Source of the DNA: a virus
Taxonomy: Duplodnaviria > Caudoviricetes
Length of the DNA: 64,000 nucleotides
Virus record (IMG/VR): IMGVR_UViG_3300017700_000931
Span: 32,001 to 96,000 of that record
Strand: one strand, 5' to 3'
The position numbers and the translations under genes are program-made. Under the pieces are notes generated by a model. It saw only the letters and a list, made by a program, of their open reading frames with translations, ran no database searches and had not been told where the DNA came from. Shown one piece after another: positions 12,497 through 35,501 of this stretch (the first letter of the stretch is position 1; every line of letters starts with the position of its first letter).

Positions 12497-13887
12497 ACTA
12501 ATGTTTTTACCATGTGTTCGATTTCCTTAGCTGATTCTAATGAATCACAAGTGTTTTTATCCGTCCTTAATTCCACTACGGATGGATGTAAAGTAGACCA
12601 ATTACCATCTGAATCTTGGGATAATCCGCAACATCTTATTTCTACAACGCTACCCATTAATTTTTCTTGATTTTCGGTAACGTACTTCATCATTTCTTCG
12701 TTCATACCTGATGGATTTGTTTTTAACAAACCACAAGATGACTCAGTTCTAATTGTTGAAATAACATTTTCATTCTTGGTGCCCTTAGTTCCATAATTAA
12801 AACCAACGATTTTTAAATCAATAGACATTTCAAGTTTCATTTTTACTTGCCAGTTGGGTTTGCCATCTTTCCAAGCTCCATCATGCGCCTTAAGAATAGT
12901 TCCTTCGAGACCTTTAGCTAATGCTGTTTGAAAATGGGCCATCGCATCTGAATAAGATTCACATAGAACATTTTCTACCACACATACCTTGTTGTTTTCA
13001 TTTTGATTACCAAATAAAACACCCTCTAAATTTTTAAGTCTTTCATGATATGGTACTGATGTTTTTTTATTAAAATACTCATCAGTTGTAATCATATCCC
13101 AAACTGTAAACCGGATACCATTTATTGCATCAATATAAGGACCATGTTTTTTATCGAACGCACTTATTTTTTTAAGTGTTTCTACTTCACCTCTTTCTTC
13201 ACGCTTACCTTCGATATCTACGATTGATGCAACCATACCATTCGCAGTATATCTGTCGTATCCATCAATAGTTAATTCACCATTCAAAACAACGTCATTC
13301 AATAATTCCAATTCTTTTAAAAATGGTGCATTACCAACGAATGTTGTTTCACTTTGTCTTGAAACCAATTCAACTTCACCACCACGAATAATCGCATTAC
13401 AATAACGACCATCCATTTTTATTTGTGAAAAGGCTTTTTTACTTTTGTTGAAAATATCTTTAGCCAATTTTTCTGAAAATGATTTAGCTCCCATGTATGG
13501 TGTTTCTTCAATCAAATTAGGGATGACTTTATTTATCCCAGAGTCCATACCAATTTTCAAGTCTTTTTGAATGATACGTTCAATAACATAAGCATCATCT
13601 GATAATACTGATGAAAGAATATCTCTTAAATATTCAATAGCATCATTACCAGTGACTTCTCGATTGATTAATTTATCAAGTTTTTTCAATGCTTCATCAA
13701 GAGTTAAAGATGAATTACCATCCTTTGTGTATTCTGGAATTTGCTTAATATAAAACTTAATGCGTTTTGAATCGGCCAGATAAAGAACTCGTTTTAATAA
13801 TTCATTATCCTTGTATTTACCAAGAATCGCTAATTTAGCAAGCTTACCATTATCAGCCGCAATTTCATCTAAAATTTGTTTAATCAT
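12493..13887 (-). CDS. ATP-dependent DNA ligase
   Basis: KMDGRY, LNGEL, EGTILK, KMK motifs; C-terminal OB fold. Confidence 0.9.
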   Translation of the reverse strand: MIKQILDEIAADNGKLAKLAILGKYKDNELLKRVLYLADSKRIKFYIKQIPEYTKDGNSSLTLDEALKKLDKLINREVTGNDAIEYLRDILSSVLSDDAYVIERIIQKDLKIGMDSGINKVIPNLIEETPYMGAKSFSEKLAKDIFNKSKKAFSQIKMDGRYCNAIIRGGEVELVSRQSETTFVGNAPFLKELELLNDVVLNGELTIDGYDRYTANGMVASIVDIEGKREERGEVETLKKISAFDKKHGPYIDAINGIRFTVWDMITTDEYFNKKTSVPYHERLKNLEGVLFGNQNENNKVCVVENVLCESYSDAMAHFQTALAKGLEGTILKAHDGAWKDGKPNWQVKMKLEMSIDLKIVGFNYGTKGTKNENVISTIRTESSCGLLKTNPSGMNEEMMKYVTENQEKLMGSVVEIRCCGLSQDSDGNWSTLHPSVVELRTDKNTCDSLESAKEIEHMVKTLV

Positions 13888-14684: not shown

Positions 14685-15209
14685 TTATTTAGTACGCTTT
14701 GATTTTTTACCATTCCACTCATCCTTTATTGCTAACCAAGGGAATAATTTATAAAATTTTGACCAGACTCTTTTAGACCTTTTTTTACTTGGATATCGAA
14801 TAGAATTACCACTACTTCCGCCACTGCCAACTTTAACATCTTTGTTATCCCGACCCTCTTTTATTGGAGTCTTTGACATTTCAATTTCTTGTAAATTTTT
14901 TTTCCTTCTTATTTCATACCATTTAGAAAGTACGTCATCACGCTTTAAGCCTAATTCTATTGATATGATTATTATTTGAATTGGTGCCCTAAGCCATCCA
15001 TTTTTTAAGTACTGAGTGGGTTCATAAGGGGCTGTTAAACAATCATAAGCAGAGATACCCATAGCAATTGCTATTTGGGCCTCTTGAAGTGTTTTATCAT
15101 AATCAAACATTAGTTCTAATCCATGAGCTTCATGCATTAAAAATTCCATTCTACGATGCATTTGTCTTCTATCTCTAGCCATGATTATTCCACATCCGGT
15201 TTTAACCAA
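14685..15209 (-). CDS. hypothetical protein
   Basis: 174-aa ORF. Confidence 0.5.
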   Translation of the reverse strand: MVKTGCGIIMARDRRQMHRRMEFLMHEAHGLELMFDYDKTLQEAQIAIAMGISAYDCLTAPYEPTQYLKNGWLRAPIQIIIISIELGLKRDDVLSKWYEIRRKKNLQEIEMSKTPIKEGRDNKDVKVGSGGSSGNSIRYPSKKRSKRVWSKFYKLFPWLAIKDEWNGKKSKRTK

Positions 15210-25328: not shown

Positions 25329-25385
25329 ATAGGTAAAAGAGCCTTGCACTCTATTTGGAAGTCACATCTATGCTTCTAAGTCAAG

Positions 25386-25459
25386 GGTGACTGACGGGAA
25401 TCGAACCCGCATTAACAGGACCACAACCTGTCGTGTTAGACCATTACACTACAGTCACC
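25386..25459 (-). tRNA. tRNA-His(GUG)
   Basis: ACAGG-TTGTGGT-CCTGT; G-1:C73. Confidence 0.9.
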
Positions 25460-30559: not shown

Positions 30560-31690
30560 TTATCTTTCAAAGGATATTTTCTCCCAAGGTTTTTCTCTTA
30601 ATTCTCTTTGTTTTTCTTTAATGATGCTGATAGCATTCTGTAGACGTTGGTCACCTTTGCCCATCACAATCTTAAAATTAGCGTTATTAGCTTCTAATTG
30701 AGCCTTAATACGTAGAAAATGAAGAAGTCTATCTTTCTGTTCTGAGAAATCTCTTGTTCCATCATCTTTCCAAGCGATATCTGGGTAAGTTAATAAATAA
30801 AGGTCAATTTTACCAACATTTTGGTAAAATCCATTACCAAAAATTTGTAGTTTGATTAATCCATCGATTTTATCGGAATAATAGGTAACATCATCAGATT
30901 TATCAGAATTGTACCAATCATTCATATCGGTATACATTGATAAAAATGTTTTAGTAACAATTGCCTCAGTATCTACAAATATATATCGGCAATCCTTACG
31001 GTCCCTTTCACATATTCGCTCCGCTCTTAACATTGATTGATAATGTTCGCCAGCAATATGATAAAAATCTTCCGGTTTTAGGTCCTTGGTTTTAACTTTA
31101 TTTTCTGTATACCAACGTCCATATTCATCAACAACCATACCATCATATATTTCACCTAATTGGGTGGTCAGTGTTGATTTACCAGTAGATTCAGGACCAA
31201 TGATTGCAATTTTCATCCTGAAATAAGATTTTACTTCATCTGGAATATAGGCCCAATTATCAAAAGGATTTCTTCTAATGTCTGTCCCGGATATTGGAAA
31301 GGCTACTCGGTTCTTATCCACTAATACTGGCTCAACATTAAGACATTTAGCGAAAGCAAATACATAATCTTCCGAGGCGAATACTGCATCCAATTCTGGA
31401 ATATATGAATAAACTGAATCGTGCCAAATTTGCCAAAAATTTTCATTATCCTCTGGATATTGTGGGTTCTCATCTGGGCAATGGATAACGTTGATATTTT
31501 TTTCATTAATAAAAATATCCTTGGCCATCTTAAACCGGATTTCACCATCAATTGGCTCACAAAGACGTGAGCAAACCATAACATGAACTACTTCACATTG
31601 TTTAGCAGCCTCTCTTATCATATGGACATGCCCATTATGTATGGGCATAAATTTACCTAAGCAAAGTCCGTTTTTAAATCTTTTTTCCAT
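30560..31690 (-). CDS. nadR: NadR-like NMN adenylyltransferase / ribosylnicotinamide kinase
   Basis: GKFMPIHNGH (HxGH), ISGTDIR, GPESTGKST Walker A, DTEAIVT, W..DGTR. Confidence 0.85.
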   Translation of the reverse strand: MEKRFKNGLCLGKFMPIHNGHVHMIREAAKQCEVVHVMVCSRLCEPIDGEIRFKMAKDIFINEKNINVIHCPDENPQYPEDNENFWQIWHDSVYSYIPELDAVFASEDYVFAFAKCLNVEPVLVDKNRVAFPISGTDIRRNPFDNWAYIPDEVKSYFRMKIAIIGPESTGKSTLTTQLGEIYDGMVVDEYGRWYTENKVKTKDLKPEDFYHIAGEHYQSMLRAERICERDRKDCRYIFVDTEAIVTKTFLSMYTDMNDWYNSDKSDDVTYYSDKIDGLIKLQIFGNGFYQNVGKIDLYLLTYPDIAWKDDGTRDFSEQKDRLLHFLRIKAQLEANNANFKIVMGKGDQRLQNAISIIKEKQRELREKPWEKISFER

Positions 31691-32220
31691 AAAAAATATG
31701 CTTTAATCGACATTAAAAATAATACCACTTCTAGTATGGCAATAATATATAACCCTTGGTATAGCATCATACCACAAACTAATGTATTAACCACCATCCA
31801 TAATATCCACCCCTCTAGGTATTTATTACCCATATAATGGGTTGCCAATATAGCTATACCACTACTCATAGCATCTATATAGGGGGAGGGAGAATCAGTA
31901 TAGGTATCCATTATCCTACCCATAGGGATAGAAATAAGGGTGAAAATGATGATATGTGTTAAAAAATTAACATTTTGTGTTATTTTAAGCTCTAAATACT
32001 CTTCATGGGCACCTTTTCCCCATTTATACCATCCAAAAATGTTTGCAATGAAGAAAATTATCTGCAAAATTGCTTGTAAATAAATTTTTTCATTAAAATA
32101 AATGACGAAAAAGAGAATTATTGCAACAATTCCGAAAAACCAACACCAAATATTTTGTTTTGCTGTCAAATAAACACAAATCAATGTGAAAATCATTGCA
32201 GATATCTCCAAAAATTTCAT
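31657..32220 (-). CDS. pnuC: PnuC nicotinamide riboside transporter
   Basis: Multi-TM; AKQNIWCW, GWYKW, DA..S, KYLEGWILW. Confidence 0.85.
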   Translation of the reverse strand: MKFLEISAMIFTLICVYLTAKQNIWCWFFGIVAIILFFVIYFNEKIYLQAILQIIFFIANIFGWYKWGKGAHEEYLELKITQNVNFLTHIIIFTLISIPMGRIMDTYTDSPSPYIDAMSSGIAILATHYMGNKYLEGWILWMVVNTLVCGMMLYQGLYIIAILEVVLFLMSIKAYFLWKKDLKTDFA

Positions 32221-34193
32221 TATAAAGACATTTTGATTGTGATATAACCACTTAATGGTGCATTTACATAGAAATACCTAAGATTATCTACAACATACCC
32301 ATTAGTATAGTACCGTACACTGGTAATATTGTTAACCCTACCACTAATAGTATAGTCTTTATAGGTATACCCTATACTACCCCCATATATGATAAAAGAG
32401 GGGGTGGTGTAATTATTACTAAAATCTAAATACGAACTACTATGGTATTTGGCTGTAAAGGCTAAATTAAATGGTCCATACTTATAATTCAATTCAGCAT
32501 TGCTAACTACCGGAGGTGTATACAATGGTTGGAATTTCATTCCATTATCGTTTATTCGATTATAAGATAGGTTCGTATTATTATTCAGGGTCAATCTACC
32601 ATTTTCATTATCCAATAAAATAATTGATGTCTCGATTTCAATTCCACTTCTAAATGATTTATCAACATTCATCATTAATGGTAAACCGTTAGAGCCTAAA
32701 GCACCTATCAGGGTTATTTCATTTTTGAAATCCATGAAGTATAGATTACTTTTAAATTTGAATCTTTCACTCAAATAACTAAAACCAACCTCATAATCCG
32801 TAACCATTTCTGGATTTACTGCTGAATATGAAATTAGATTATCTTCGCCCATGAACATATCATTACGAGTAGGTTCTCGGTGAGATACTCCAACTGAAGC
32901 ATATGCTCTAAAATGTCTACAATAATTAAATACTACACCAGCTTTAGGATTAAAGAATAACCAATTTAAGTCCGGCATGACTACATCACCATTATATTCA
33001 AATGTAACATATCTTAATTGGGCATCCCCGAACAATGTGTACTTTCCGATGTCATAACCACCTTTCATGAATCCACTCAATTCATTCTTAAAACCTTTAT
33101 TAGTGTATAACCTATTTTCAACGTGAGGTAAAAGAGCCATACCATGTTCTCTATTGTACATATTACCATGGATTCCAATATTAGCATTTAATTTATCACC
33201 AGAATATTTGTAGTTGGACATCAGGCCATAAAAATTAGAGGCTAATTGGTAATTCAAAACATCGGTACCAGCACCTAATGGATTTAAATCCAAATCCCAC
33301 TCACCATCAAGACGATTATAATAAATTGTTGTATTAATTAATGATTTATTACCCAATCTTTGAGTATGTTGTACTTGAATAAAATTTTGAATGAAATTAT
33401 CATCCTCAACTGGTGTGTTATAATTAGTTCTTGGGTCTGCATTAATATCCAATTCGGAAACTGCATTCCAAGACATTTGATTTAATGACCGACCAGTGAA
33501 TCCTGAAAATTTGATTACACTATTTTTTAAATGGTAACCACCGCTCATGAAGAACGAATAACCCTTACTTCCAGAATTATATTTGTAACCATCAGTATCA
33601 AATGTAGAAAAATTAGTATAGATTGCTAACCCTTTATCATTAATCCCAGTGCTGTGCGAAACATTAAATCGTTTTGTATTAAAAGAGCCATAACCTAATT
33701 CTACTTCGGTGAATTCTTTCACACCACTTGGACTCTCAAAATTGATTGAACCAGCATAAGAGGAAACACCATTCGTAGATGTTCCAACACCACGTTGAAT
33801 TTGCATTGATTGAATATTATTTGAAAATCCGGGGTAGTTAGAGAAATAAACACCTTGGTCTTCTGGTTCATTAAGGGGAACACCATTAAGTGTCATATTA
33901 ATTCTAGTTTGGTCAATCCCTCTAATTCTAAAATAAGTATAACCTTGTGGATGACCACCATCCGTTGATGATGTGATTGAAGGGGTTTTATCCAAAACTT
34001 GTGAAACTTCTTCACCTTGATATCCGGTTTTAATATCATCTCGACCAAGTGTTGTTTCAGTGACTGGAGTTTTGTTATCAGCTCTAACGCCAGTAACACT
34101 TACACCCTCAAGTGTAATCATCTTAGTTGTATCTTCCTGAGCATGAACAAAAACAAGACTCAACAGAGTAATACAAAATAATAATTGTTTCAT
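32220..34193 (-). CDS. TonB-dependent receptor
   Basis: Signal peptide; plug YFRIRGID..RINMTLNGVPLND, GVGTS..GSINF; beta-barrel ending in hydrophobic C-terminus; TATCTTTG at 34212-34219. Confidence 0.9.
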   Translation of the reverse strand: MKQLLFCITLLSLVFVHAQEDTTKMITLEGVSVTGVRADNKTPVTETTLGRDDIKTGYQGEEVSQVLDKTPSITSSTDGGHPQGYTYFRIRGIDQTRINMTLNGVPLNEPEDQGVYFSNYPGFSNNIQSMQIQRGVGTSTNGVSSYAGSINFESPSGVKEFTEVELGYGSFNTKRFNVSHSTGINDKGLAIYTNFSTFDTDGYKYNSGSKGYSFFMSGGYHLKNSVIKFSGFTGRSLNQMSWNAVSELDINADPRTNYNTPVEDDNFIQNFIQVQHTQRLGNKSLINTTIYYNRLDGEWDLDLNPLGAGTDVLNYQLASNFYGLMSNYKYSGDKLNANIGIHGNMYNREHGMALLPHVENRLYTNKGFKNELSGFMKGGYDIGKYTLFGDAQLRYVTFEYNGDVVMPDLNWLFFNPKAGVVFNYCRHFRAYASVGVSHREPTRNDMFMGEDNLISYSAVNPEMVTDYEVGFSYLSERFKFKSNLYFMDFKNEITLIGALGSNGLPLMMNVDKSFRSGIEIETSIILLDNENGRLTLNNNTNLSYNRINDNGMKFQPLYTPPVVSNAELNYKYGPFNLAFTAKYHSSSYLDFSNNYTTPSFIIYGGSIGYTYKDYTISGRVNNITSVRYYTNGYVVDNLRYFYVNAPLSGYITIKMSL

Positions 34194-34251: not shown

Positions 34252-34281
34252 AAAAAAAATGGAACCCTAGGGTTCCATTTG
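34252..34281 (-). terminator. intrinsic terminator
   Basis: AAATGGAACC-CTAG-GGTTCCATTTTTTT. Confidence 0.75.
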
Positions 34282-34701: not shown

Positions 34702-34797
34702 TTAATTAAACTTTATTACTTTTGGGACAATCCGAACCATATTCGTTCATCCATTCTTACTCGAAGAATTTTAAGGTGGCTTTACTTTCTATTTCAT
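34702..34797 (-). other. mini-ORF with TAG, TAA and TGA in one frame (MK*KVKPP*NSSSKNG*TNMVRIVPKVIKFN*)
   Basis: ATG at 34797 with A-rich upstream; stops at codons 3, 9, 17, 32. Confidence 0.35.
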
Positions 34798-34817
34798 AAT
34801 TTATAACATTTATGTTG

Positions 34818-34888
34818 AGGTAGGGGGCAGAATCGAACTACCATATCACGACTTGCGGTCGTGCACTTAACCAATCAGTCACCCCACC
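34818..34888 (-). tRNA. tRNA-Cys(GCA), C33
   Basis: CACGA-CCGCAAG-TCGTG; U73. Confidence 0.8.
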
Positions 34889-34893
34889 TTTTA

Positions 34894-35154
34894 TTACCAA
34901 ATATTGGCTATAATTTCAGTATTTATTATTTCAATTTTTAATTTGGCTCTAAATTTAATACTACCCTTGGTGTGTGGATTTTCTGGTGTTTCTTTAGTAG
35001 AGAATCCAACTCCGGGAGACACATCAATATGATTAACATAATGCGTCAGACCCATATGTTTAATCACCCACATTGGTATCGTATTATCTTCGAGATTTTT
35101 CTTATTAAAGTGAAAAATTATTTCTCGTCTTTTTGTGTCATCAATGATTAACAT
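34894..35154 (-). CDS. hypothetical protein
   Basis: 86-aa ORF whose start overlaps the Pth2-like stop. Confidence 0.65.
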   Translation of the reverse strand: MLIIDDTKRREIIFHFNKKNLEDNTIPMWVIKHMGLTHYVNHIDVSPGVGFSTKETPENPHTKGSIKFRAKLKIEIINTEIIANIW

Positions 35155-35501
35155 GATAATACCCCTTTCCCCATTAATGGTAATGAACTAGTTAATTTAC
35201 GACTAGCCTCAGATGGGGCCAATGCAATTGCTGTTAATTCATTATTGATATCCGGTTCCCTAAATGGTGTTATCTTAATATAACGTTCAGCTGCTTTTAG
35301 AATGAATTGTTTTAACTCATCTTCATTAGCTACGGTTAGGAAAATTAAATAATTGGAATTTGTGTGCCAGTCTTTGGCCTCCGTTGGATGTCCATGTTGG
35401 AAATCGATTGCAGCATGAGCTGCTTGTACTGCTTGATAAGCAAGTGGTAAATCACGTCTAGTGATGACAATTAATTTGTTATTTTCAATCTAATTTTTCA
35501 T
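35148..35501 (-). CDS. Pth2-like peptidyl-tRNA hydrolase with in-frame UAG at codon 4
   Basis: ATG AAA AAT TAG ATT..., then 113 open codons: KLIVITRRDL..QAVQAAHAA..FREPDINNELTAIAL; missed by ORF track. Confidence 0.8.

What the first reader, a model, noticed from the sequence alone, without database searches (positions are those of the whole stretch)
35148..35501. Peptidyl-tRNA hydrolase-like gene gated by an amber codon at position 4
ATG AAA AAT TAG is followed by 113 intact codons with Pth2-like motifs, and there is no downstream ATG before the last few codons. The gene starts 22 nt after a CUA-anticodon tRNA-like gene. UAG remains a normal stop elsewhere in the window (15410, 39539), so this is local recoding. 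Product would appear only when RF1 is limiting or the suppressor is active.
Basis: partly seen in the sequence, partly recalled or inferred. Interest (0 to 1): 0.88.

Follow-up and report, generated by a model that had tools for sequence, protein, structure and literature searches.

The report
Stop-codon-gated phage tRNA-hydrolase-like gene
A small Pth2-type (peptidyl-tRNA-hydrolase-like) gene of a 362-kb phage carries a deliberate UAG stop at codon 4, a feature kept in about 140 related phage genes that almost always sit beside a tRNA reading that very stop, so the enzyme is probably made only when that suppressor tRNA works; in this phage the tRNA copy looks shrunken.

Summary
Window 35501-35148 reads ATG AAA AAT TAG, then 113 open codons of a Pth2-fold protein. 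A 66-nt tRNA-like element with a CUCUAAA loop ends 21-22 nt upstream.

The TAG is not damage. About 140 distinct homologues from two collections nearly all begin with ATG, 0-8 further sense codons, then a stop. Their leader peptides differ in length and sequence.

- Most homologues have a cloverleaf tRNA(CUA) within 0.1-3 kb.
- The TAA homologue has a tRNA(UUA), and the TGA homologue has a tRNA(UCA).
- Two homologues with a plain ATG start carry one internal TAG instead.

This genome and the relatives otherwise use TAG as an ordinary stop, so the recoding is gene-specific.

Peculiar to this phage:
- The only CUA element lacks a D arm and has a poor anticodon stem, so whether it still decodes is open.
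- The gene keeps every conserved residue.

This scan has found the same cassette before on other DNA, in at least 25 genomes. I found no publication describing it. What the enzyme does, and the purpose of the gate, remain inferred.

The parts
35148..35501 (-). Pth2-like gene: ATG AAA AAT TAG + 113 codons + TAA
   Evidence: sequence. (Pfam PTH2 29.9 bits). (AF2 pLDDT 93.9; Pth2 structures 2zv3, 3erj, 1q7s, 1xty at TM 0.72-0.81; profile E 1e-9).
35490..35492 (-). In-frame TAG (codon 4), the gate; followed by A (ATT)
   Evidence: Conserved as an early stop in 68 of 76 distinct IMG/VR homologues (three more carry one that the script's rule missed) and in 67 of 67 from metagenome contigs. The base after the stop is A 107, G 27, C 1, T 0.
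35493..35501 (-). Three-codon leader ATG AAA AAT
   Evidence: In homologues the leader is always ATG-started, 1-9 codons long and not conserved in sequence (MK, MT, MS, MKN, MTH, MKDT, MKKPFYY, MNTNHEA).
35523..35588 (-). 66-nt tRNA-like element with CUCUAAA loop; positional orthologue of the relatives' suppressor tRNA(CUA); D arm missing, anticodon stem poor
   Evidence: Rfam tRNA 23.7 bits, below 29. (fold no better than shuffles, z -0.99). (ARAGORN only at -ps80, 4-base anticodon 'ctaa'). (alignment). (suppressor-specific model R1: 48 bits, E 2e-12). (nearest sequence is the L006 suppressor). (only CUA-loop tRNA-like element in the 362-kb genome).
34894..35154 (-). orf86, a conserved small all-beta protein; its ATG overlaps the end of the Pth2-like gene (ATGTTAA)
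   Evidence: tblastn hits in 24 related loci, 53-75% identity. (24 invariant columns). (AF2 pLDDT 88.5). (no informative fold match).
34817..34888 (-). tRNA-Cys(GCA), syntenic end of the cassette in this clade
   Evidence: The same position relative to the gene in L005, L009, L019-L024 and L030.
37055..37733 (-). Context: RF1-like release-factor gene (PPT and GGQ motifs) with in-frame TGA at codon 39 and a CTT TAG C +1 shift site at codon 54
   Evidence: Pfam RF-1 78 bits, PCRF 37 bits. (sequence; syntenic in 14 related loci; relatives carry TGA at codons 39 and 52, or Cys plus CTT TAG C).
34257..34280 (-). Terminator-like hairpin closing the unit. The previous minus-strand terminator is at 37052-37028, so orf194, orf213, the tRNA-like element, the Pth2-like gene, orf86, tRNA-Cys and orf134 lie between two terminators

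Best explanation
This is one member of a widespread phage cassette. In it, a Pth2-fold gene is kept closed by a selected in-frame stop codon just after its start codon, and a suppressor tRNA encoded next to it has the anticodon that matches that stop. Translation starts at the ATG. At codon 4 the ribosome meets UAG. RF1 then releases a tripeptide, or a UAG-reading tRNA inserts an amino acid and the 113-residue enzyme is made. The stop lies in a non-conserved leader, so the identity of the inserted amino acid does not matter. The gate therefore reports suppressor activity relative to RF1. Shown by comparison: the stop is conserved, the leader varies, the tRNA is adjacent, stop and anticodon covary, and the rest of the genome uses the standard code. 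Inferred: that the tRNA is made, charged and actually decodes the stop, and what the enzyme does. My preferred purpose, by analogy with prfB and infC, is a feedback or clean-up loop. Production of the hydrolase would be tied to the level of stop-codon suppression, either to hydrolyse esters on the suppressor tRNA or to recycle the peptidyl-tRNAs that read-through creates. In this particular phage the tRNA partner has lost its D arm and has a weak anticodon stem. The gate may therefore open only weakly, through a still-working minimal tRNA or near-cognate read-through. I put the odds at roughly even that the 66-nt element still decodes.
For: - **Stop conserved:** 56 of 59 first-pass sequences (this gene and 58 related loci) have ATG + 1-6 sense codons + TAG in frame. 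After de-duplication, 68 of 76 IMG/VR genes (plus L141, L100 and L062) and 67 of 67 metagenome genes have the early stop.
- **Other TAG positions:** L058 and L059 start normally but hold one internal TAG. L053, L100 and L105 hold a second TAG.
- **tRNA adjacency:** ARAGORN at default settings finds a tRNA(CUA) in 57 of 67 and 52 of 66 TAG loci, despite short flanks. Three more are non-canonical CUA elements that ARAGORN misses. There are 39 distinct tRNA sequences.
- **Covariation:** L060 has TAA with tRNA(UUA). L141 has TGA with a cloverleaf tRNA(UCA). No mismatched pair was seen.
- **Gene-specific:** under code 11 long ORFs cover 82% of the genome, and reading TAG as sense adds 2%. This gene is the only ATG-leader-TAG-long-ORF case in 362 kb. 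In the relatives' flanks TAG ends 37 of 352 long ORFs, and TAG-joined ORFs (27/411) are no more common than the TGA control (42/443).
- **Protein under constraint:** this gene keeps all 9 invariant and 16 near-invariant residues, and the model has pLDDT 93.9.
- **Termination context:** the base after the gate stop is never T (0/135). Natural TAG stops of this genome are followed by T in 17 of 39 cases.
- **The element here is the orthologue:** same position in the same gene order, 48 bits on the suppressor model, and nearest to the L006 suppressor.
- **Cultured example:** Tenacibaculum phage pT24 has an annotated tRNA-Sup(CUA), and ATG AAA TAG in front of its Pth2-like gene. The GenBank CDS for that gene is started 30 codons too late.
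Against: This phage's own CUA element fails the tRNA gathering score, has no D stem and at best 2-3 Watson-Crick pairs next to the loop, and folds no better than shuffled sequence. No second copy of this shrunken form exists from which to test covariation. About 10% of this phage's genes end in TAG, and they show no shorter read-through tails than other genes, so a strong suppressor would be costly. The TAA example (L060) also has a frameshift in the gene. The TGA example's tRNA is 2.6 kb away on the other strand. The never-T context is confounded by conservation of Ile/Val after the stop. The canonical Pth2 catalytic lysine loop (GKGK) is absent, so hydrolase activity is not assured.
Confidence: 0.75

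Rival explanations
1. The cassette is decaying in this phage. A deletion removed the D arm of the suppressor tRNA, the tRNA no longer decodes, and the Pth2-like gene is now silent or only leaky, though too recently for the ORF to have degraded. The family-level gate would still be real.
For: The element scores 23.7 bits on Rfam tRNA, below the gathering score of 29. ARAGORN calls it only at relaxed settings and with a 4-base anticodon. Its fold has z = -0.99. No other CUA tRNA exists in the genome. The phage has a second, canonical and ungated PTH2 gene at 110.8 bits.
Against: The acceptor stem (7 pairs), the T arm (5 pairs) and the CUCUAAA loop are intact. The gene keeps every conserved residue on a branch at least 31% diverged from its nearest relative. 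Reduced-D-arm CUA tRNAs are the only suppressor found near the gene in L037/L114 and occur again in L052, and several relatives have odd CUA tRNAs that ARAGORN misses.
Confidence: 0.25
2. No suppression is needed. The ATG-AAA-AAT-TAG is a bar-like mini-ORF, and ribosomes terminate and then restart at the adjacent AUU (a weak start codon), so the tRNA's proximity is incidental.
For: ATT, ATA or ATC follows the stop in most homologues. AUU is a known weak bacterial start (infC; my own knowledge). One homologue (L135) has ATG right after the TAG.
Against: GTA, GTT, CTT, AGC, ACA, AAC, GGC or GGT follow the stop in a quarter to a third of homologues. L058 and L059 have the TAG at codon 46 or 34, where a restart would delete the conserved N-terminal half. 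This idea does not explain why the stop type tracks the neighbouring tRNA's anticodon.
Confidence: 0.07
3. It is a plain pseudogene or a sequencing error.
For: There is one in-frame stop near the start, and the phage has another, intact PTH2 gene.
Against: The stop is conserved at the same place in about 140 distinct homologues at 36-69% identity. The 113 open codons have a chance probability of 1.2e-4. All conserved residues are kept.
Confidence: 0.02
4. The phage, or its clade, reads TAG as an amino acid genome-wide (code 15), and this gene is just one of many recoded genes.
For: Phage-encoded CUA tRNAs are typical of TAG-recoded phages (bioRxiv 10.1101/2021.08.26.457843).
Against: TAG ends 43 of 439 long ORFs in this genome, and reading it as sense gains almost nothing. 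Only this gene needs it. The relatives' flanks give the same picture.
Confidence: 0.01

Closest known systems
Stop-codon recoding by phage-encoded suppressor tRNAs (TAG read as Gln, 'code 15', in crAss-like, Lak and other gut phages; Borges et al., bioRxiv 10.1101/2021.08.26.457843)
   Same: A phage-encoded tRNA(CUA) opens in-frame TAGs in phage genes. The idea that this delays or conditions the expression of certain genes.
   Different: There, dozens to hundreds of genes (structural, lysis) carry many TAGs and TAG is lost as a stop. Here the genome is standard-code and a single small gene next to the tRNA carries the stop. The stop sits in a short leader, and its type changes together with the anticodon.
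Orphan suppressor tRNAs of standard-code jumbo phages (for example Xanthomonas phage XacN1, PMC5852040)
   Same: Standard-code jumbo phages with large tRNA sets that include tRNA(CUA).
   Different: Those authors read through the 18 amber stops of XacN1 and found no target. Here a concrete, conserved target is seen. It is hidden because the stop lies at the 5' end of the gene, so gene callers truncate or drop the gene (the pT24 CDS and phrog_14850 both start inside the domain).
prfB (RF2) autoregulation through an early in-frame UGA, and infC (IF3) through an AUU start
   Same: A translation-factor gene carries, near its 5' end, the very signal whose decoding reflects the state of the translation apparatus.
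   Different: prfB needs a +1 frameshift and its product acts on the stop. Here the frame continues unchanged, a dedicated tRNA is the opener, and it is unknown whether the product acts on that tRNA or on the stop. A true prfB-like CTT TAG C site does sit in the RF1-like gene 1.6 kb upstream.
Archaeal/eukaryotic peptidyl-tRNA hydrolase 2 (Pth2, PF01981; PDB 2zv3, 3erj, 1wn2, 1xty, human Bit1 1q7s)
   Same: The fold and the R-x-D-L ... Q..HA sequence motifs.
   Different: 18-26% identity. The GKGK loop is deleted and the D-A-G-x-T motif is replaced by an invariant F-R-E-P-D-I-N-N..T-A. This phage also has a canonical Pth2 paralogue at 29% identity that is not gated.
Lambda bar minigenes (AUG AUA stop), which poison Pth-deficient cells
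   Same: A two- or three-codon ORF ending in a stop. The functional link to peptidyl-tRNA hydrolase (my own knowledge).
   Different: bar minigenes are free-standing. Here the frame continues into a conserved enzyme, and some homologues place the stop in mid-gene.

Membership tests
Pth2 (PF01981) | Sequence match above Pfam's gathering score | tested here: met
   29.9 bits against a cut-off of 23, covering profile positions 2-114 of 115. The family profile hits PDB Pth2 chains, best 2zv3 at E 1.1e-9.
Pth2 (PF01981) | Pth2 alpha/beta fold | tested here: met
   AF2 model with pLDDT 93.9 and pTM 0.87. The top 13 Foldseek PDB hits are all Pth2/Bit1, TM mostly 0.7-0.8 (3erj_A 0.81), probability 1.00.
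Pth2 (PF01981) | Catalytic Lys and Asp (Lys18/Asp86 of Sulfolobus Pth2; numbering recalled from memory, Fromant et al. 2005, not checked here) | tested here: inconclusive
   In the profile alignment to 2zv3 and 1rzw, the GKGK loop falls in a 2-residue gap of the phage family. The Asp of the R-D-A-G motif aligns with the invariant Glu78 of F-R-E-P-D.
Pth2 (PF01981) | Hydrolysis of N-blocked aminoacyl-tRNA | not testable with these tools
   Needs an enzyme assay.
Amber suppressor tRNA (the element at 35523-35588) | Cloverleaf with D, anticodon and T arms; scores as a tRNA | tested here: not met
   Rfam tRNA 23.7 bits, below 29. Only 7 nt where the model expects about 13 for the D arm. Non-canonical pairs in the anticodon stem. 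ARAGORN at default settings is silent.
Amber suppressor tRNA (the element at 35523-35588) | 7-nt anticodon loop with U33 and CUA at positions 34-36 | tested here: inconclusive
   CUCUAAA is present and identical to the relatives' consensus loop. The closing stem has a C-A mismatch (also seen in L005, L020 and L021) and only two G-C pairs above it. ARAGORN prefers an 8-nt loop.
Amber suppressor tRNA (the element at 35523-35588) | Homology and synteny with the cassette's bona fide tRNA(CUA) | tested here: met
   Model R1, built from 33 relatives without this sequence, gives 48.0 bits and E 2e-12 over the full length. The best pairwise match is the L006 suppressor. Same place in the gene order.
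Stop-gated Pth2-like / suppressor tRNA cassette (as defined by this scan) | In-frame stop in the Pth2-like gene, with ATG leader, conserved among homologues | tested here: met
Stop-gated Pth2-like / suppressor tRNA cassette (as defined by this scan) | Neighbouring tRNA whose anticodon matches the stop | tested here: met
   Relatives. This phage: only the shrunken element, so it is met in position and loop sequence, while function is unknown.
TAG-recoded (code 15) phage | Many genes with in-frame TAG; TAG not used as a terminator | tested here: not met
prfB-type programmed frameshift | A +1 shift is required to continue past the early stop | tested here: not met
   The conserved protein continues in frame 0 directly after TAG. 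The +1 and -1 frames close within a few codons (sequence).

The most novel reading that the evidence does not exclude
The cassette is a self-referential governor of stop-codon suppression. The Pth2-like enzyme would specifically strip the amino acid or peptide from the suppressor tRNA encoded next to it. Its synthesis requires that tRNA, so the result is negative feedback that holds suppression at a low set level in a phage whose own genes still end in that stop codon. In this clade it would work together with a phage RF1-like gene that is itself gated by UAG (CTT TAG C) and UGA, forming a small homeostat for UAG decoding during infection.
Probability: 0.15. Interest if true: 0.9.

Novelty: new variant of a known kind. 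Interest (0 to 1): 0.74.

Why it matters
Suppressor tRNAs in phages that otherwise use the standard code have had no known client. The XacN1 authors looked for one and found none (PMC5852040). This cassette supplies a conserved client and explains why it was missed: the stop sits at the 5' end, so gene callers cut off or drop the gene. It would be a natural single-gene, tRNA-operated translational switch whose lock (the stop codon) and key (the anticodon) co-evolve. That bears on three things: how phages manage the host's termination machinery, the proposed first steps toward stop-codon reassignment, and orthogonal switches in synthetic biology. A cultured member (Tenacibaculum phage pT24) makes it testable. 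This instance adds a case in which the key looks broken while the lock and the enzyme are intact. It sits next to an RF1-like gene with its own stop-codon gates, a tmRNA and ClpP.

Tried and rejected
- **Genome-wide recoding:** rejected.
- **Another suppressor in the genome:** none was found. ARAGORN at default, with introns and at relaxed settings, Rfam tRNA over the whole genome (69 matches) and a loop/T-arm motif scan all give only 67523-67588.
- **Closer relatives carrying the shrunken tRNA:** none. There was no megablast hit in phage records, no exact match to its core in IMG/VR, and the best protein identity is 69% in both IMG/VR and metagenome contigs.
- **Amino-acid identity of the suppressors:** no consistent resemblance to one isoacceptor, and the discriminator base varies (A 24, G 6, U 3).
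- **Back-up stops after natural TAG terminators:** no signal (Mann-Whitney p = 0.8).
- **Enrichment of ATG-AAR-TAG in the window:** 9 observed against 2.6 expected. Most copies lie inside coding regions in other frames. Only 34797-34789, downstream of tRNA-Cys, is intergenic, and I did not pursue it.
- **orf86 fold:** no informative match in PDB or AFDB clusters.
- **Cellular genomes:** the genome-contig scan gave 7 loci, all MAG contigs that look like mis-binned phage.
- **Literature:** five full-text searches found no paper linking Pth2 and suppressor tRNAs in phages.

Full report
**1. What is there.**
The feature lies on the minus strand. From window 35501 downward the sequence reads ATG AAA AAT TAG ATT GAA AAT AAC AAA TTA ..., 113 sense codons after the TAG, ending in TAA at 35150-35148.
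- The post-TAG protein matches Pfam PTH2 at 29.9 bits against a cut-off of 23, over almost the whole profile. It also matches phage family phrog_1866.
- After the TAG, the first in-frame ATG, GTG or TTG is 89 codons away.
- At this strand's stop-triplet frequency, 113 open codons have a chance probability of about 1e-4.
- At 35588-35523, ending 21-22 nt before the ATG, lies a 66-nt tRNA-like element. It has a 7-bp acceptor stem, a perfect T arm and the loop CUCUAAA. It has no D stem and a poor anticodon stem.
- That element scores 23.7 bits on Rfam tRNA (gathering 29), is missed by ARAGORN at default settings, is called only at relaxed settings with a four-base anticodon, and folds no better than shuffled sequence.

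**2. The genome.**
The window is bases 32001-96000 of a 362,532-bp virus record with direct terminal repeats and 32.7% G+C.
- ARAGORN finds 57 tRNAs and the Rfam tRNA model finds 69 matches.
- The genome uses the standard code. ORFs of 100 aa or more cover 82% of it. TAG ends 43 of 439 of them, and reading TAG as sense adds only 2%.
- I scanned for 'ATG, up to 10 codons, stop, then at least 80 open codons'. This gene is the only TAG case without a nearby canonical start.
- The genome holds a second, canonical and uninterrupted PTH2 gene (110.8 bits), 29% identical to this one.

**3. The stop is conserved.**
A first scan of IMG/VR gave 59 related loci.
- Among the 59 sequences examined (this gene and 58 of those loci), 56 begin with ATG, 1-6 sense codons, then TAG, and continue in frame into the conserved body.
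- The leaders differ in length and sequence: MK, MT, MS, MG, MKN, MTH, MKDT, MKQH, MEHT, MKKPFYY.
- A profile scan found 242 relatives, of which I fetched 80 with 5-kb flanks. A scan of metagenome contigs found 130, of which I fetched 80.
- After removing duplicates, 68 of 76 IMG/VR genes have the early stop. L141, L100 and pT24, which my script's rule missed, also have it.
- All 67 metagenome genes have it: 66 with TAG, and one short contig with TAA that I did not examine.
- L058 and L059 start with a plain ATG but contain one internal TAG, at codon 46 and codon 34, with homology continuing in frame. L053, L100 and L105 have a second TAG.
- What is conserved is therefore 'at least one matching stop codon inside this gene', not a particular leader peptide.

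**4. The tRNA partner.**
- ARAGORN at default settings finds a tRNA with anticodon CUA near the gene in 57 of 67 and 52 of 66 TAG-type loci.
- In nearly all first-pass loci the tRNA lies on the gene's strand. It sits either 100-270 nt upstream or 0.3-3 kb downstream.
- Most loci without one are truncated contigs. Three of them have odd CUA-loop tRNA-like elements that ARAGORN misses.
- There are 39 distinct tRNA sequences with the consensus loop CUCUAAA.
- L060, whose early stop is TAA, has a tRNA(UUA). L141, from a 189-kb contig of 49% G+C, has ATG, 6 codons, then TGA, and a cloverleaf tRNA(UCA) 2.6 kb away.
- No mismatched stop-anticodon pair was seen.
- Two weaknesses: L060's gene also has a frameshift, and L141's tRNA is on the other strand.

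**5. Relatives are standard-code too.**
In 49 ten-kilobase loci TAG ends 37 of 352 long ORFs. ORFs that would be joined by reading TAG (27/411) are no more frequent than the TGA control (42/443). The recoding is specific to this gene.

**6. Context of the stop.**
The base after the gate stop is A in 107 cases, G in 27, C in 1 and T in 0. Natural TAG terminators of this genome are followed by T in 17 of 39 cases. From my own knowledge, a T after the stop gives strong termination, and a purine, especially A, favours amber suppression (Bossi 1983; Poole et al. 1995). The pattern fits this, but it is confounded by the conserved Ile/Val after the stop.

**7. The protein.**
An alignment of 30 family members has nine invariant residues (R11, D13, H25, L59, F76, E78, P79, N83, T86). 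This gene keeps all of them and all 16 near-invariant ones.
- The AlphaFold model is confident, at pLDDT 93.9.
- Its top 13 PDB matches are all archaeal Pth2 and human Bit1, at TM mostly 0.7-0.8, the best being 3erj_A at 0.81. The family profile finds the same structures by sequence.
- The GKGK loop of Pth2 is deleted, and the DAG motif is replaced by F-R-E-P-D.
- It is therefore a diverged Pth2-fold protein whose activity is not assured.
- In pT24 and L056 it is fused to a C-terminal part with a weak, sub-threshold HD-domain match.

**8. Is this phage's tRNA-like element the partner?**
- In this clade the gene order is: RF1-like gene, kinase-like orf194, tRNA(CUA), Pth2-like gene, orf86, tRNA-Cys. 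The window has the same order, with the 66-nt element where the tRNA(CUA) belongs.
- A covariance model built from 33 relatives' suppressors, without this sequence, scores the element at 48 bits (E 2e-12) over its full length.
- Its closest sequence is the L006 suppressor, not any of this genome's own tRNAs.
- It is the only element in the genome that combines a CUA-type loop with a T arm.
- It is thus the orthologue, but it has lost about 8-10 nt of the D arm and has an extra base in the anticodon stem.
- Reduced-D-arm CUA tRNAs also occur in L037/L114 and L052, so reduction need not mean death.
- No second copy of this form exists from which to test covariation. I leave its function at about even odds.

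**9. Surroundings.**
- Terminator-like hairpins on the minus strand at 37052-37028 and 34280-34257 bracket orf194, orf213, the tRNA-like element, the Pth2-like gene, orf86, tRNA-Cys and orf134.
- orf86 starts inside the last codons of the Pth2-like gene and is strongly conserved, but its fold is uninformative.
- Upstream lies an RF1-like gene (Pfam RF-1 and PCRF; GGQ and P-P-T motifs). It has an in-frame TGA at codon 39 and a CTT TAG C site at codon 54 that needs a +1 shift.
- Relatives of that gene carry either two in-frame TGAs or Cys plus the same CTT TAG C.
- A tmRNA (41434-41052) and ClpP follow.
- The gated gene therefore sits in a neighbourhood devoted to termination and ribosome rescue.

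**10. Known or new.**
- Full-text searches found no paper linking Pth2 and suppressor tRNAs in phages.
- The XacN1 paper states that read-through of its 18 amber stops revealed no target for its two CUA tRNAs.
- Borges et al. describe genome-wide recoding and note suppressor tRNAs in standard-code relatives.
- The cultured Tenacibaculum phage pT24 has an annotated tRNA-Sup, and ATG AAA TAG ATA in front of its Pth2-like gene. The GenBank CDS for that gene starts 30 codons too late.
- Mycobacterium cluster-C phages have an ungated pth next to a tRNA(CUA).
- This scan has already reported the same cassette in at least 25 other genomes. My tests here were made independently and agree with those reports.

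**11. Verdict.**
The mechanism, translation that depends on a suppressor tRNA, is inferred. The purpose is unknown: feedback on suppression, clean-up of peptidyl-tRNA, or a timer. The special point of this instance is the shrunken tRNA beside an intact gate and enzyme.

Noticed in passing
window 37055-37733 (-): RF1-like release-factor gene (GGQ and P-P-T motifs) with an in-frame TGA at codon 39 and a prfB-like CTT TAG C +1 shift site at codon 54. In 10 related loci the same gene has two in-frame TGAs (codons 39 and 52) and no shift. In L005 and L025 codon 39 is Cys and the CTT TAG C site is present.
   Followed up: partly
window 34894-35154 (-): orf86: an 86-aa all-beta protein whose start overlaps the end of the Pth2-like gene. 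It is conserved in 24 related loci with 24 invariant columns. It has no Pfam or PHROG family and no informative fold match.
   Followed up: partly
window 41052-41434 (-) and 41508-42236 (-): A phage tmRNA (Rfam 89.7 bits) next to a ClpP protease gene, 5.5 kb upstream of the gated gene.
   Followed up: no
G000 15044-15110, 25354-25409, 13142-13198, 311813-311870 (outside the window): Several short tRNA-like elements (56-67 nt) with good acceptor and T arms but missing or tiny D arms. Two of them have a CUGUAAA (Tyr-type GUA) loop. This phage seems to hold a family of shrunken tRNA-like genes, not just the CUA one.
   Followed up: no
window 34789-34797 (-): Intergenic ATG AAA TAG mini-ORF just downstream of tRNA-Cys and upstream of orf134. 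Read through, it would give MK?KVKPP. ATGAARTAG occurs 9 times in the window against 2.6 expected, but most copies lie inside genes in other frames.
   Followed up: partly
L062 / L234 (Tenacibaculum phage pT24, LC168164.1 194083-195036): GenBank CDS BPT24_235 is started 30 codons inside the Pth2 domain because of the ATG AAA TAG leader. PHROG family phrog_14850 matches this truncated CDS end to end (positions 1-270 of 270), so the family profile appears to carry the same late start. The C-terminal half has a weak HD-domain match.
   Followed up: partly
L003-L030 and L150-L158, 25-40 nt upstream of the ATG: A recurring TATATTTAT / TATATTTG motif between the tRNA(CUA) and the gene. It resembles the Bacteroidota -7 promoter element TAnnTTTG (my own knowledge). 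It is absent from this window, where only 21-22 nt separate the tRNA-like element and the ATG.
   Followed up: no
L063 (Mycobacterium phage ScoobyDoobyDoo, MZ820085.1): An ungated, annotated pth gene sits in a tRNA cluster with a tRNA(CUA) 180 nt downstream. The pairing of a Pth2-like gene with tRNA(CUA) thus extends to actinophages even without the in-frame stop.
   Followed up: no
window 30560-34193 (-): A TonB-dependent receptor gene (Plug plus beta-barrel domains) encoded by the phage just downstream of the cassette.
   Followed up: no
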